From a virus (Duplodnaviria > Heunggongvirae > Uroviricota > Caudoviricetes): DNA of 64,000 bases. Position numbers and translations under genes: made by a program. The DNA is taken from the IMG/VR virus record IMGVR_UViG_2541047759_000001. One strand, 5' to 3'. The notes below the pieces were generated by a model that did no database searches, was not told the DNA's origin, and saw nothing but the letters and a program-made list of their open reading frames with translations. Shown here piece by piece: positions 3,954 to 9,125 of the stretch (positions are counted from its first letter, which is position 1; every line of letters starts with the position of its first letter).

Positions 3954-4145
3954 TTAAAATCCTGCCGGGATTTCGTTATTATCCTGGTGAATAACTTTAT
4001 CGACCGGATAACAGTTGCCTGGAATTTTCTGTTCGGTTGCTGCTGCCATACATTCCTGCATTGTTCTGTGAACACTGACTGCAATATCAACTGACTCTCC
4101 GGAAACAAGAAAAACCGTCAGAATAAGTGCAAATACTGGATTCAT
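3954..4145 (-). CDS. Small hypothetical protein with hydrophobic N-terminus (possible signal peptide)
   Basis: ATG at 4145 overlaps upstream stop in an ATGA arrangement; 'MNPVFALILTVFLVSG' hydrophobic start; Cys residues. Confidence 0.45.
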   Translation of the reverse strand: MNPVFALILTVFLVSGESVDIAVSVHRTMQECMAAATEQKIPGNCYPVDKVIHQDNNEIPAGF

Positions 4146-4330
4146 TGTGCACATCCTTTTGGCATCAGACGTAAACGGGCCAGCATTGAAACAATGCATA
4201 CTTTATTTAATAACTCCCGTTCGTGTTTTCTTTTGTTAATGGCATCTTCAGTAAATACAGGATTACTGATAGTGACACCAATTTCAAAACAACCTTCAGA
4301 CGTATTAACGTTTGGTAATAACGTTTTCAT
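4142..4330 (-). CDS. Hypothetical small protein
   Basis: 62-aa ORF with GAGGG RBS upstream of ATG at 4330; translationally coupled to the downstream small gene. Confidence 0.35.
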   Translation of the reverse strand: MKTLLPNVNTSEGCFEIGVTISNPVFTEDAINKRKHERELLNKVCIVSMLARLRLMPKGCAQ

Positions 4331-5724: not shown

Positions 5725-6363
5725 TTAAATATCTTGTTGAATTTTAAAGCATACGCCCAATATGCAAGATAGATCATCCAGCATAATTGAAGGGTAGCGA
5801 GGATTCGTGGGGACTAAAAGAATATCCGGCCCTTCTATCTCCAGTTTACGAATGACAGGTGTTGTGGTCCCTTTGGGTAAGGCAAGGACAATATTTCCTG
5901 GTTGTACGGTTCGATCGGGATCAACAAAAACTGTTGAACCATTTGGGATGGAAACTCCCCCACCAGATGTTGACATACTGTCACTCTCTAGAACAACTGC
6001 AAAGGTATTGACCGGGATTTCTCCGACAAGCTGCACACAAGAGGTTATTGAGGAATTTTTCATATAATCACTCCAGCTTGCTGCCTGCTGAAGTGATAGT
6101 AGCGGAACCGTTTTTATCGGCGGTAAAGATAGATCAAGCGAATCACCTGTATTTAACTCTCCTCCATTAAGAAGCCAATTTTCGTTTACTTTCAATATTT
6201 TTGCCAGTGAACTTATGTAACGCGAGGACGGCGCTCCTCCACCGTTCATCCATTGACTTACGGAGCCTTTTGATGCGCCAGTGCCATTGACAAGGTCTTT
6301 GCCTTTCAGGTTTAGCGCATGCATACGTTGGGTTATGCGTTCAGATATAGTTTGCTTGCTCAT
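5725..6363 (-). CDS. cI: CI-like repressor, N-terminal HTH plus C-terminal S24 LexA-like peptidase domain
   Basis: 212 aa; HTH-like 'GASKGSVSQWMNG'; C-terminal region with Ser and Lys consistent with a self-cleaving S24 domain; divergent from cro. Confidence 0.8.
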   Translation of the reverse strand: MSKQTISERITQRMHALNLKGKDLVNGTGASKGSVSQWMNGGGAPSSRYISSLAKILKVNENWLLNGGELNTGDSLDLSLPPIKTVPLLSLQQAASWSDYMKNSSITSCVQLVGEIPVNTFAVVLESDSMSTSGGGVSIPNGSTVFVDPDRTVQPGNIVLALPKGTTTPVIRKLEIEGPDILLVPTNPRYPSIMLDDLSCILGVCFKIQQDI

Positions 6364-6380
6364 GTTTTGATTTTAAAACA
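6362..6380. promoter_or_regulatory. Putative right operator palindrome ATGTTTT-N5-AAAACA overlapping the cI start
   Basis: Inverted repeat sharing half-sites with the 5639-5660 palindrome; lies in the cI-cro divergent intergenic region. Confidence 0.45.
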
Positions 6381-6396
6381 CAGATGGTTTTGTTTC

Positions 6397-6424
6397 TTGA
6401 CTTTCTTTGGTTTTGATTATTAAA
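6397..6424 (+). promoter_or_regulatory. Candidate pR-like promoter for cro
   Basis: TTGACT at 6397-6402 and TATTAA at 6419-6424, 16-bp spacer, about 30 nt upstream of the cro ATG. Confidence 0.35.
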
Positions 6425-6454
6425 CTTTTGACGTTCAGTTTTATGGAGCGACTC

Positions 6455-6697
6455 ATGAAAAAATCAGAAGTATTAGGCTATTTTGGCGGAGTTGTTAAAA
6501 CAGCCGCAGCTCTAGGAACGTCAAAAACCACAGTCAGCATGTGGGGGGAAGAGGTTCCGTGGAAATGGGCGTTGCTAATTCAGGCAGTCACTGCCGGGGC
6601 GCTCAAATATGAGTTACACATACCGACGGTTGTCATTCCCGGTTCTGATCATAATCCGCCTTCTAACCAAGGGGGGATTCATGAAAATCAAGCATGA
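6455..6697 (+). CDS. cro: Cro-like HTH regulator
   Basis: GGAG 6 nt upstream of ATG at 6455; 'GYFGGVVKTAAALGTSKTTVSMW' HTH; divergent from cI. Confidence 0.7.
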   Translation: MKKSEVLGYFGGVVKTAAALGTSKTTVSMWGEEVPWKWALLIQAVTAGALKYELHIPTVVIPGSDHNPPSNQGGIHENQA

Positions 6698-7106
6698 ACA
6701 CATCCGCATGGCGATGAATGCCTGGGCGCATCCGGACGGCGAAAAAGTACCGGCTGCGAAAATTACCAAAGCGTATTTCGAGCTGGGAATGACGTTCCCG
6801 GAACTGTATGACGACAGCCATCCGGAAGCCCTGGCTCGCAATACCCAGAAAATTTTCCGCTGGGTAGAGAAAGACACCCCTGATGCAGTTGAAAAAATTC
6901 AGGCGTTGTTACCAGCGATCGAAAAGGCAATGCCACCTTTGCTGGTGGCCAGAATGCGCAGCCACAGTTCAGCTTATTTTCGGGAGCTGGTGGAGACGCG
7001 GGAGCGACTGGTGAGAGACGCTGATGATTTTGTCGCAGTGGCAATCGCCGGTTTCAATCAGATGAACCGTGGTGGCCCGGCAGGAAATGCTGTGGCAGTA
7101 CATTGA
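6681..7106 (+). CDS. Early regulatory protein, YdaT/CII-position protein
   Basis: 141-aa ORF directly downstream of cro, overlapping its end; function assigned by position only. Confidence 0.5.
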   Translation: MKIKHEHIRMAMNAWAHPDGEKVPAAKITKAYFELGMTFPELYDDSHPEALARNTQKIFRWVEKDTPDAVEKIQALLPAIEKAMPPLLVARMRSHSSAYFRELVETRERLVRDADDFVAVAIAGFNQMNRGGPAGNAVAVH

Positions 7107-7177
7107 CTGACAATAGCCATATCGAATCGCTTCCGGCAACTCGTGAGTAAAAAGATTCGGTATCAGAAGAGGTGAGT

Positions 7178-8248
7178 ATGGCTAACGCCTGGCTCAGATT
7201 ATGGCATGACATGCCAAATGACCCTAAGTGGCGAACAATTGCCAGGGTGTCAGGGCAGCCAATTGCAACAGTGATGGCAGTGTATATCCACCTCCTGGTG
7301 AGCGCGTCACGAAATGTCACGCGAGGTCACATTGATGTCACGACAGAAGATTTGGCAAGTGCGCTCGACGTGACAGAAGAGGTAATTGATTCAATTTTGC
7401 AGACGATGCAGGGGCGGGTACTTGATGGTGATTTAATCACTGGATGGGAAAAACGCCAGGTGCTGAAAGAGGACAACGGCAATATTTCGCAAACCGCAAA
7501 ATCTCCGGCAGAGCGCAAGAGGGCGCAGCGAGAGAGGGAAAGAAAGCGGGAACAAAATGGCGATTGTCACGGCGAGTCACGAAATGTCACGCACATGTCA
7601 CGACGAGTCACGACAGATAAAGATACAGATAAAGATACAGATCAAGAAGATCAAAACACTATGGTCCATGGCGTAAAAAACGCCACGAACCAGGCAGGGG
7701 ATGTTCAGACCGTCACTCCTGGCCAGCCCGCAGGCACGACACCGGAAGCCGATTCAGCGTATGCGCTGAAAGCCGATTCGGGCGCTGTGCAGCAGGTGAT
7801 GACCGCAAGGCAGGAGCAATCACACCAACTTCAGCAGCCTGAAGCCGATTCCGCCATTCAGCGGGAAGCCGATCGGGTAGTCCCGGAAAACACCGGGCAG
7901 CCTGTGGGACGAGTGGATTATCCTGATGTGTTCGAACAGGTCTGGCGGGAATACCCGTTGCGTGCCGGGGCAAACCCGAAGAAATCCGCTTTCAGTGCCT
8001 GGAAAGCCAGATTACGCGAGGGGGTGCCACCAGAGGCCATGCTGGATGGCGTGAGGCGTTACGCAAGATACCTTGCGGCTACCGGGAAAACGGGAACGGA
8101 ATTTGTTCAGCGAGCGACGACGTTTTTTGGACCGGACCGGAATTTTGAAAACCCCTGGCTGCTCCCGGTAAGCGGCACGAACAACCAGCGTTGTGTGAAT
8201 CATATTTCTGAACCGGATAACGAAATTCCGCCGGGCTTCAGGGGGTAA
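7178..8248 (+). CDS. Replication initiator, replisome-organiser type, with internal iterons
   Basis: AGAGGTGAG RBS; N-terminal 'WLRLWHDMPNDPKW' domain; two clusters of GTCACG repeats inside the coding region, as in lambda O. Confidence 0.75.
   Translation: MANAWLRLWHDMPNDPKWRTIARVSGQPIATVMAVYIHLLVSASRNVTRGHIDVTTEDLASALDVTEEVIDSILQTMQGRVLDGDLITGWEKRQVLKEDNGNISQTAKSPAERKRAQRERERKREQNGDCHGESRNVTHMSRRVTTDKDTDKDTDQEDQNTMVHGVKNATNQAGDVQTVTPGQPAGTTPEADSAYALKADSGAVQQVMTARQEQSHQLQQPEADSAIQREADRVVPENTGQPVGRVDYPDVFEQVWREYPLRAGANPKKSAFSAWKARLREGVPPEAMLDGVRRYARYLAATGKTGTEFVQRATTFFGPDRNFENPWLLPVSGTNNQRCVNHISEPDNEIPPGFRG
7306..7650. repeat. Origin-like iteron clusters (GTCACG at about 10-bp spacing) followed by AT-rich GATAAAGATACAG repeats
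   Basis: Cluster 1 at 7306-7345 (4 copies), cluster 2 at 7566-7615 (5 copies), AT-rich repeat at 7616-7650. Confidence 0.65.
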
Positions 8249-8288
8249 GTGTTAATTTCTGGTCATGAGGTAATTTTCAGGAGGGCTT

Positions 8289-8711
8289 GTGGCAAAAGTT
8301 TTTACACAAGAAGAGCGGGAAAAAATTAAAGGACAGGTTCTTGAACTCGTACGCCAGAGTGGGCGCGAGACGTTACGACAACTGGAAGCTAAAACTGGGG
8401 CAACAAGATATCTGATGAGCGTTCTGGCCAGAGAGCTGGTTGCCAGTGGCGATGTATACAATTCTGGCTACGGGTTATTCCCGTCTGAACAGGCTCGTAA
8501 AGACTGGCAAAATGCCCGCAAAAAATTATCGAGGGCAAAGCTGAAGAAACCGGTTGTGGTTGATCCGGACCTTATCTGGTCGTTACCTGACGGAGAAATA
8601 CGTCGCTACGACAGTCGCCTAAACATAATCTGTCGCGAGTGCCGGAAGAGTGAAGCTATGCAGCGTGTACTGGCTTTCTATCAGGGTAATTTTCAGGAGG
8701 CGGTACTGTGA
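8289..8711 (+). CDS. Hypothetical phage protein
   Basis: 140-aa ORF with AGGAGG RBS before a GTG start. Confidence 0.55.
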   Translation: MAKVFTQEEREKIKGQVLELVRQSGRETLRQLEAKTGATRYLMSVLARELVASGDVYNSGYGLFPSEQARKDWQNARKKLSRAKLKKPVVVDPDLIWSLPDGEIRRYDSRLNIICRECRKSEAMQRVLAFYQGNFQEAVL

Positions 8712-8768
8712 GTGAAATTAGCTATCAGGCTTCAATTACCGCTGGCATTCGCATCAAAGGAGAGGAGC

Positions 8769-9125
8769 ATGGAAATAAAACCAGAGGATGAGTTAAGCAA
8801 TATCGTTTTATTTCCGGTAAAAGAGGATGACCCTCGTAATCAGGTTAATTTTCTTTATGAGCCATCGGAAAGACCATATTGTCATCACGCCTCTGTCCGG
8901 GTTGACGAAAAAGAGCGTCAGGTCCGCTGTAAAATCTGCGGTGCAGTTGTGGAGCCATTTGACTGGATGCTCTCTGTGGCGAAAAGAGAAAGCAGACTGG
9001 CAGATGATGTAAGGCTCTTGCGTCAGGAGGAGCGGGAAAGGCGAAAAAATATAGAAAAGCTAATTCAGATTGAGCGTAACGCGAAAGCGCGGATACGCAG
9101 GGCGACAAAATCCAGAACTGAATAA
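8769..9125 (+). CDS. Hypothetical zinc-ribbon protein
   Basis: AGGAGAGGAG RBS before ATG; 'CHH...CKICG' Cys/His cluster. Confidence 0.55.
   Translation: MEIKPEDELSNIVLFPVKEDDPRNQVNFLYEPSERPYCHHASVRVDEKERQVRCKICGAVVEPFDWMLSVAKRESRLADDVRLLRQEERERRKNIEKLIQIERNAKARIRRATKSRTE

What the first reader, a model, noticed from the sequence alone, without database searches (positions are those of the whole stretch)
7306..7650. Prophage origin iterons embedded in the replication initiator gene
Two clusters of GTCACG repeats at about 10-bp spacing, followed by AT-rich GATAAAGATACAG repeats, lie inside the initiator coding region, as with ori-lambda inside gene O. The repeats themselves encode a repeated 'SRNVT' peptide.
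Basis: partly seen in the sequence, partly recalled or inferred. Interest (0 to 1): 0.4.

Follow-up and report, generated by a model that had tools for sequence, protein, structure and literature searches.

The report
Prophage replication origin inside its initiator gene
The repeats are real and almost certainly form the replication origin of a very common E. coli prophage, written inside the gene for the protein that probably binds them; the layout is a classic one (as in phage lambda), but this particular origin does not appear in the papers I could search.

Summary
GTCAC(G) cores lie at 7306, 7316, 7326 and 7337, with an inverted copy at 7369-7374. Five more lie at 7566-7612. All are spaced 10-11 bp apart. 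They are followed by A-rich GATAMA hexamer repeats (7613-7660) and an inverted repeat (7662-7692). Everything sits inside a 356-aa initiator gene (7178-8248).

There are nine exact GTCACG in 307 nt against 0.15 expected (P about 1e-13).

Comparison of 64 homologous loci supports selection on the DNA itself:
- In 23 loci with locus GC of 34-69%, the motif sits at the same gene positions.
- Synonymous codon positions inside the motif are frozen (codon entropy 0.07 against 0.82 elsewhere, p = 4e-6).
- More distant homologues carry a different phased motif (CGAACGC, GTAACGC, GCAACG) at the same two places.
- The A-rich tract after the second cluster is kept in most loci, often as clean hexamer repeats, even in a 69% GC host.

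The protein has a DnaD-NTD/RepA_N-like winged-helix N-domain, a disordered linker that encodes cluster 2 and the AT-rich tract, and a C-domain ending in a DnaT-like tail.

The protein is not a lambda O homologue. I rate it a new member of a known kind, of moderate interest.

The parts
7178..8248 (+). Replication initiator gene (356 aa). Residues 1-93 form a winged-helix N-domain and 110-127 a basic helix. Residues 130-243 are a disordered linker and 245-333 a helical C-domain. The protein ends in a DnaT-like tail, ...VNHISEPDNEIPPGFRG.
7306..7342 (+). Iteron cluster 1: four direct GTCAC(G/A) cores at 7306, 7316, 7326 and 7337 (10/10/11 bp). They encode residues A43-T55, the end of helix 29-45 and the loop before helix 56-63 of the N-domain.
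   Evidence: Same positions (gene nt 129/139/149/160) in 23 loci. Codons frozen. The loop has lower pLDDT and tolerates 7-codon (two-iteron) insertions, as in L003.
7369..7374 (-). Single inverted iteron core (GTCACG on the minus strand), about 33 bp downstream of cluster 1.
   Evidence: GTGAC is kept at gene nt about 193 in most GTCAC-type loci, even where the encoded residues differ (DVT, DCD, VSD).
7566..7612 (+). Iteron cluster 2: five direct GTCACG cores at 7566, 7576, 7586, 7597 and 7607 (10/10/11/10 bp). It lies in the part of the gene that encodes the disordered linker.
   Evidence: Homologues carry 3-5 copies at the same place. AF2 disorder over residues 130-243.
7613..7660 (.). A-rich tract of hexamer repeats (GATAAAGATACAGATAAAGATACAGATCAAGAAGATCAAAAC), the presumed DNA unwinding element. 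It contains two GATC sites.
   Evidence: D5, D14. GC is 0.30 over the 40 nt after the last iteron. GAT/AAA codons are strongly preferred here against host bias. The strict hexamer pattern occurs in 21 of 59 genes, always just after cluster 2, and 0 times in 299 kb of flanks. It occurs with both iteron types.
7662..7692 (.). Inverted repeat TGGTCCATGGCGT-aaaaa-ACGCCACGAACCA on the far side of the AT-rich tract.
   Evidence: I12; 13-pair stem. An inverted repeat of differing sequence is found at this place in most GTCAC-type loci. The same hairpin accompanies the C-half module in Stx phage 75/02.

Best explanation
Window 7306-7692 is most likely the replication origin of a lambdoid E. coli prophage, embedded in the gene of its own initiator.

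Proposed mechanism, with each step marked:
1. The winged-helix N-terminal part of the initiator, probably helped by the basic helix at residues 107-127, binds the asymmetric GTCACG cores as monomers, head to tail. The 10-11 bp phasing puts the copies on one face of the helix, which would favour a cooperative, bent nucleoprotein array. (Inferred.)
2. The array at cluster 2 destabilises the adjoining A-rich hexamer tract, which acts as the unwinding element. (Inferred from position, composition and conservation.)
3. The C-terminal domain, with its DnaT-like tail, recruits the host DnaB-DnaC helicase system. No P-, DnaC- or DnaB-like gene follows the initiator here. (Inferred.)
4. Cluster 1, 260 bp upstream, and the inverted site are auxiliary sites. 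They may serve looping or handcuffing, or self-repression by blocking transcription of the initiator's own gene. (Speculative.)

What is shown: the repeats exist, they are under DNA-level selection, the layout is conserved across the protein family, and the motif changes together with the protein subtype.
For: - Enrichment: 9 GTCACG in 307 nt against 0.154 expected, P = 1.2e-13.
- The motif is read in three frames at 10/11-nt spacing.
- In 23 homologous loci (Enterobacterales, Pseudomonas, Bordetella, Chromobacterium, Stenotrophomonas and others; locus GC 0.34-0.69) GTCAC sits at the same gene positions.
- Normalised codon entropy is 0.065 at 8 motif codons against 0.824 at 43 other conserved codons (Mann-Whitney p = 4.4e-6, 21 loci).
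- GTGAC at nt about 193 is kept even when the amino acids differ.
- 34 of 59 loci carry the same 5-mer phased at 9-12 nt in both places. Codon-shuffled genes almost never do. Distant homologues use CGAACGC, GTAACGC or GCAACG instead.
- After cluster 2, GAT/AAA outnumber GAC/AAG 143:14, against 370:412 in the rest of the genes (Fisher p = 5e-27). In genes with GC >= 0.57 the counts are 62:7 against 121:224.
- The 40 nt after the last iteron fall below the 5th percentile of GC for the locus in about two-thirds of loci.
- The strict hexamer pattern occurs only at this place.
- An inverted repeat follows in most loci.
- The gene is a phage replication initiator with a DnaD-NTD/RepA_N-like winged helix.
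- Cluster 2, the AT-rich tract and the hairpin map to the disordered linker, as ori-lambda maps to the middle of gene O (PMC7466680).
- The window's other neighbours (YdaT/cII-like, DUF977, Zn-ribbon, cI, cro) are absent from distant loci that keep the iterons.
- Records deposited as phage genomes (Evi, Tritos, vB_EcoS-640R1) carry the module at 98-99.9% identity.
Against: - There is no experimental evidence of binding, unwinding or origin activity, and I found no paper on this sequence.
- The iterons lie in cis within the gene, so their co-variation with the protein subtype is partly automatic.
- The classical recognition helix (residues 67-77) varies within the GTCACG group, so how specificity is read is unclear.
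- The hairpin enrichment is only moderate, and it travels with the C-half module.
- The function of cluster 1 is unknown.
- The loci are phylogenetically related, so the p-values overstate independence.
Confidence: 0.8

Rival explanations
1. The repeats are initiator-binding sites whose main job is control (self-repression, copy-number control or incompatibility, handcuffing), and replication starts elsewhere in the prophage.
For: Cluster 1 and the inverted site have no adjoining AT-rich tract. Sites inside the coding sequence could block the gene's own transcription. Control arrays separate from the origin are known from iteron plasmids (my own knowledge).
Against: Cluster 2 is always followed directly by the conserved A-rich tract, and usually by an inverted repeat. 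That is the standard origin layout. No other repeat array was looked for in the rest of the window, so this rival is not excluded for cluster 1.
Confidence: 0.1
2. The repeats are bound by a different factor, either a neighbouring phage protein (YdaT/cII-like, DUF977/Ren-like, Zn-ribbon) or a host protein.
For: No binding data exist. The recognition helix of the N-domain is variable within the GTCACG group.
Against: The neighbouring genes are absent from the distant loci that keep the same iterons at the same positions. Hosts span beta- and gamma-proteobacteria. The motif type changes with the initiator subtype.
Confidence: 0.05
3. The repeats matter at the protein level only (repeated SRNVT-like peptides), or are a by-product of recombination at a module junction, and have no DNA function.
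For: SRNVT is encoded twice. The N and C halves of the gene recombine independently, with the joint near 7636-7653.
Against: The motif is read in three frames. Synonymous sites within it are invariant while neighbouring codons vary freely. The core is retained where the amino acids differ. Cluster 2 lies in a predicted disordered linker.
Confidence: 0.03

Closest known systems
ori-lambda within gene O of lambdoid and Stx phages
   Same: The origin lies in the middle of the initiator gene. It consists of an array of initiator-binding repeats with an AT-rich tract beside it (PMC7466680). From my memory, a palindrome follows in lambda. The N-half gives specificity, the C-half is exchangeable, and the module joint falls at the origin. 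The genomic context is also lambdoid: cI, cro, a cII-like gene, then the initiator.
   Different: There is no sequence relationship to O: no Pfam match. The iterons are 10-bp units with a 6-7 bp asymmetric core, not roughly 19-bp dyads. There are two clusters 260 bp apart plus an inverted site. No P-like loader gene follows.
SPP1 oriL within gene 38 (replisome organizer G38P)
   Same: The iterons (AB boxes) and the adjacent AT-rich unwinding element are embedded in the organizer's own gene, and the protein binds two separate regions (PMC5737612). The window protein gives weak matches to Phage_rep_org_N / TIGR01714 and to replisome-organizer PHROGs.
   Different: The matches fall below the family cut-offs (15.8 bits against 23.3; 18.4 against 49.8). 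SPP1 encodes its own loader and helicase (G39P, G40P), and this module does not. The second SPP1 site (oriR) is described as a distant region of the genome (title of ref. 23), not 260 bp away in the same gene.
RepA_N plasmid initiators (pSK41, pTZ2162) and DnaD N-terminal domain
   Different: There is no RepA_N Pfam match. RepA_N iterons are mostly semi-palindromic around a poly-A tract, whereas these are short and asymmetric.
Phage P4 ori / crr (from memory, not tested)
   Same: Short octamer-type iterons in two separate clusters, both bound by the initiator.
   Different: The P4 alpha protein is a primase-helicase and is unrelated. The P4 clusters are kilobases apart and do not lie in the initiator's DNA-binding-domain coding region.

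Membership tests
Iteron-type origin embedded in the initiator gene (lambda O / SPP1 G38P type) | Array of three or more repeated short sites inside the initiator ORF | tested here: met
   4 + 1 + 5 GTCAC(G) cores inside ORF 7178-8248, P = 1.2e-13.
Iteron-type origin embedded in the initiator gene (lambda O / SPP1 G38P type) | AT-rich unwinding tract directly beside the repeats | tested here: met
   7613-7660 has GC of about 0.30. It is conserved against codon bias in homologues.
Iteron-type origin embedded in the initiator gene (lambda O / SPP1 G38P type) | Repeats under selection as DNA, co-varying with the initiator subtype | tested here: met
   Codon entropy 0.065 against 0.824. Alternative motifs occupy the same two places in distant homologues.
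Iteron-type origin embedded in the initiator gene (lambda O / SPP1 G38P type) | The initiator binds the repeats and the segment supports replication | not testable with these tools
   Needs EMSA or footprinting and an ori-plasmid or marker-frequency assay.
Lambda O protein family | Sequence homology to the O N-terminal domain | tested here: not met
   No Pfam family matched the full protein at E <= 0.01 and no O-type family matched either half at E <= 10. The 'DNA replication protein O' labels in some phage records are depositor names only.
Phage replisome organizer, N-terminal domain (PF09681 / TIGR01714) | HMM score above the curated cut-off | tested here: inconclusive
   PF09681: 15.8 bits against a cut-off of 23.3 (E = 0.015). 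TIGR01714: 18.4 against 49.8 (E = 0.0019). Both align over nearly the full model length. PHROG replisome-organizer families match at 6.6e-6 and 1e-4. NCBI names the close homologues 'phage replisome organizer'.
DnaD-NTD / RepA_N winged-helix fold | Structural similarity of the N-domain | tested here: met
DnaT (primosomal protein I) | Full-length match to the DnaT equivalog model | tested here: not met
   NF002770 scores 19-20 bits against a cut-off of 201. Only the last 24 residues align (RxVNxxSEPDxxIPPGFRG).

The most novel reading that the evidence does not exclude
The family uses a two-part origin code.

First, a variable iteron (GTCACG, CGAACGC, GTAACGC, GCAACG) would be read by a variable basic helix just after the winged helix. 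Residues 107-127 hold the only columns outside the iteron-encoded residues that separate the two main iteron types.

Second, an invariant (GATAMA)n hexamer tract would be a sequence-specific single-strand loading or unwinding element, comparable to DnaA-trios. It would be read by the invariant part of the protein or by the DnaT-like module.

Cluster 1, written inside the loop of the DNA-binding domain's own coding sequence, would be a second obligatory site that loops to cluster 2.
Probability: 0.2. Interest if true: 0.6.

Novelty: new member of a known kind. Interest (0 to 1): 0.4.

Why it matters
This replication module is present in about 30% of complete E. coli genomes (1647 of 5426 cover at least 80% of the query). 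Relatives occur across Proteobacteria and beyond, yet RefSeq mostly labels the gene 'hypothetical protein'.

Knowing the origin gives three things. It provides a marker for replication-competent prophages. It offers a candidate minimal replicon and a set of natural specificity variants for studying how initiator and iteron co-evolve while sharing the same nucleotides with a coding sequence. It also points to a phage initiator that may recruit the host helicase through a DnaT-like tail instead of a phage-encoded loader.

It does not change the general picture of iteron origins.

Tried and rejected
- **DnaA boxes.** There is no match better than 2 mismatches near the origin (7284-7292 ATATCCACC), and such matches are common throughout the window. 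I dropped this.
- **Promoters and terminators.** The scan of 6300-8800 found no more sites than the shuffles. The only notable site is the 13-pair stem at 7662-7692.
- **Literature.** Searches for iterons with replisome organizer, lambdoid or DnaT, and for the string GTCACG with iteron and phage, found nothing on this origin.
- **Specificity determinants.** The classical recognition helix (residues 67-77) does not separate the iteron types. The basic helix at 107-127 does, but phylogeny confounds this comparison.
- **Hairpin enrichment.** It is real but moderate. In my script the window row itself was mis-scored, because an extra GTCACT at 7712 was counted as part of cluster 2. The near-identical L002 row gives the correct values.
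- **Stx phage 75/02.** It shares only the C-half. Its N-domain is different, it has no phased repeats, and it carries a DnaC-like gene.

Full report
**1. The observation**

The sequence and an exact search show GTCACG on the + strand at 7306, 7316 and 7337, with a GTCACA variant at 7326 (spacing 10/10/11). One inverted copy lies at 7369-7374. Five more direct copies lie at 7566, 7576, 7586, 7597 and 7607 (spacing 10/10/11/10). The repeat finder recovers the same families. It also finds three 12-bp ACAGATAAAGAT-type units at 7613-7648 and an inverted repeat at 7662-7674/7680-7692.

Nine exact GTCACG fall in 307 nt, where the rate in the rest of the window predicts 0.154 (Poisson P = 1.2e-13). 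All of this lies inside ORF 7178-8248 (+).

However, the DNA core is read in all three frames (TCA-CGn, GTC-ACG, TGT/GGT-CAC) because the period is 10-11 nt. The repeat therefore belongs to the DNA and not to the protein.

**2. The gene and its context**

The surrounding genes form a lambdoid early region:
- a cI-like repressor (5725-6363, minus strand; Peptidase_S24 plus HTH)
- a P22-Cro-like gene
- a YdaT/cII-like gene (6681-7106)
- this ORF
- a DUF977/Ren-like gene (8289-8711)
- a zinc-ribbon protein (8712-9125)

The ORF matches phrog_3729 'replication initiation protein' end to end (E = 6.8e-257). It gives no Pfam hit above threshold. Phage_rep_org_N / TIGR01714 match only weakly, although over nearly their full model length.

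An AF2 model built on a 63-sequence alignment shows these parts:
- a confident winged-helix domain (residues 1-93)
- a basic helix (110-127)
- a long disordered stretch (130-243)
- a helical C-domain (245-333)
- a disordered tail

The last 17-24 residues (VNHISEPDNEIPPGFRG) align with the C-terminal tail of DnaT. The rest of DnaT does not match.

No P-, DnaC- or DnaB-like gene follows the initiator here. By contrast, Stx phage 75/02 has the same C-half joined to an unrelated N-half and followed by a DnaC-like gene.

**3. Distribution**

At least 80% of 7100-8300 is found in 1647 of 5426 complete E. coli genomes. The same stretch occurs at 98-99.9% identity in records deposited as phage genomes (Evi, Tritos, vB_EcoS-640R1).

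The two halves of the gene occur separately in other genomes, with the joint near 7636-7653, that is, at the AT-rich tract. The C-domain is also found fused to other DNA-binding N-domains such as HTH_36 and GntR-like domains.

**4. Comparative test of the repeats**

A scan of one genome per species returned 64 loci encoding relatives of the N-domain.

In 23 of them the core GTCAC sits at the same positions in the gene. These loci come from Shigella, E. albertii, Serratia, Rahnella, Superficieibacter, Scandinavium, Pseudomonas, Bordetella, Chromobacterium, Aquitalea, Stenotrophomonas, Acidovorax, Pseudothauera, Castellaniella, Gilvimarinus and Entomomonas, with locus GC from 0.34 to 0.69. The positions are nt 129/139/149/160, an inverted GTGAC at about 193, and 3-5 copies at about nt 370-430.

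Across 21 non-redundant loci, codons whose synonymous position lies inside a core are essentially fixed: GCG, TCA, GTC, ACG, GGT, CAC. Other codons for equally conserved residues vary freely. Mean normalised codon entropy is 0.065 (n = 8) against 0.824 (n = 43), Mann-Whitney p = 4.4e-6.

The inverted core is retained even where the encoded residues differ (DVT, DCD, VSD). Copy number changes by 21 nt, which is two units or seven codons. E. albertii has six copies in cluster 1, and the window has two more copies in cluster 2 than most relatives. These are the marks of selection on the DNA.

**5. Motif switching**

More distant homologues lack GTCAC. At the same two places, with the same 10-nt phasing, they carry another short motif:
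- CGAACGC in L030, L033, L036, L038, L040, L047, L050-L052 and L056
- GTAACGC in L035, L042 and L044
- GCAACG in L055 and L062
- TGTAACGC in L031

L046 and L057 carry phased ACTACG repeats at other positions in the gene and none at the cluster-1 place.

Overall, 34 of 59 loci have the same 5-mer phased in both places and 18 have it in one place. Codon-shuffled genes almost never show this.

The encoded peptide changes accordingly (ASRNVTRGHxDVT against ASNATERGRTQNVC) around an RG pair conserved in nearly all homologues. Both clusters of a gene always use the same motif, as expected if one factor reads both.

The window's other neighbouring genes are not found in the distant GTCACG loci. That leaves the initiator itself as the only protein constantly associated with the repeats.

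Outside the iteron-encoded residues, the columns that separate the GTCACG and AACGC types lie at residues 101-121 (K114, R115, Q117 against A, K, W/Y/F, plus a 9-residue deletion in the AACGC type). They do not lie in the classical recognition helix 67-77, which varies within a type. This suggests a role for the basic helix, but phylogeny confounds the comparison.

**6. The tract after cluster 2**

In the GTCAC group the last iteron is followed directly by an A-rich tract, in many loci as clean GATAAA/GATACA hexamer repeats. GC of the next 40 nt is 0.17-0.38, even in a 69% GC host. Across the whole family this stretch falls below the 5th GC percentile of its own locus in about two-thirds of cases.

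In these 14 codons GAT/AAA outnumber GAC/AAG 143:14, against 370:412 in the rest of the genes (Fisher p = 5e-27). In genes with GC >= 0.57 the counts are 62:7 against 121:224 (p = 7e-18).

A strict pattern, (GATA[ACG]A) twice or more followed by GAT, occurs in 21 of 59 genes. It always lies just after cluster 2 and never occurs in 299 kb of flanking DNA. It is present with both iteron types, so it is independent of iteron specificity.

Beyond it, most GTCAC-type loci have a GC-rich inverted repeat whose sequence differs between loci. In 18 of 23, the best stem is matched by 20% or fewer of control windows. This enrichment is moderate. In E. coli the hairpin travels with the C-half module.

**7. 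Interpretation**

The order is phased initiator-type repeats, then an A-rich tract, then an inverted repeat, all located in the part of the gene that encodes the disordered linker between a DNA-binding N-domain and an exchangeable C-domain. This is the layout described for ori-lambda in the middle of gene O (PMC7466680) and for SPP1 oriL within gene 38 (PMC5737612).

I therefore conclude, with a confidence of about 0.8, that this is the prophage's replication origin and that the repeats are iterons for the gene's own product.

Binding, unwinding at the hexamer tract, helicase recruitment through the C-domain and DnaT-like tail, and any role for cluster 1 (looping, handcuffing or self-repression) are inferences.

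**8. Differences from known systems and novelty**

The protein is not a lambda O homologue, and it matches the replisome-organizer models only below their cut-offs. The iterons are 10-bp units with an asymmetric 6-7 bp core, not roughly 19-bp dyads. There are two clusters 260 bp apart, and the first is written into a loop of the DNA-binding domain's own coding sequence. No phage loader gene follows.

I found no paper describing this origin, although the searchable library excludes much of the older subscription literature. The principle is classical, so I rate it a new member of a known kind with moderate interest (0.4).

The most novel reading still open is a two-part code: variable iterons read by the basic helix, plus an invariant hexamer unwinding element. 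I give that a probability of about 0.2.

Noticed in passing
window 8195-8245 (last 17 residues of the initiator): The C-terminal tail VNHISEPDNEIPPGFRG is nearly identical to the C-terminal tail of host DnaT (…VNTVSEPDSQIPPGFRG in PDB 2ru8; similar in 6aep), although the rest of DnaT does not match. The same tail ends several homologues with otherwise different C-domains (P0038, P0063, P0089). It may be a short mimic peptide that engages the host restart or helicase-loading machinery.
   Followed up: partly
window 3957-4145 (-): A small DUF1482 protein (Pfam E = 9e-25), next to dicB (4145-4330, minus strand), ends in ...HQDNNEIPAGF. This resembles the DnaT-like tail motif (D/N)xEIPxGF of the initiator. 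It may be a second phage protein carrying the same docking peptide.
   Followed up: no
window 7636-7653; E. coli hits H23-H26: The initiator gene is mosaic. Its N-half (to about 7636) and C-half (from about 7653) occur separately in other E. coli genomes, so the recombination joint coincides with the AT-rich hexamer tract of the presumed origin.
   Followed up: partly
L066 (Shigella phage 75/02 Stx) 1894-2982: This protein has the same C-half and the same hairpin (GGTCCATGGCGaaaaaaTCGCCACGGACC), but an unrelated N-domain, a (QE)n linker, no phased repeats in the gene, and a DnaC-like gene immediately downstream. Its origin must be organised differently.
   Followed up: partly
L063 (Lysobacter) gene nt 57-104 and 375-408: Six GTCAC copies spaced 9-10 nt apart lie at a different place, in an insertion between the first two helices that encodes VTSVTSVTNVT. 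A cluster of inverted TGACG lies near nt 375-408. The position and orientation of the arrays can therefore shift within the family.
   Followed up: no
window 7662-7692 (-): On the minus strand, the 13-pair stem followed by TAGTGTTTTG scores as terminator-like. It could end antisense transcription entering the origin. No convincing antisense promoter was seen upstream of it.
   Followed up: no
L008, L013, L014, L017, L026 and others, about 40-60 nt after cluster 2: Many homologues have a C-rich element (CCCCCCTAACCCCCC...GGGGG, encoding PPxPPRG) right after the A-rich tract, at the start of one class of C-domains. It is unclear whether it is a DNA element or a peptide motif.
   Followed up: no
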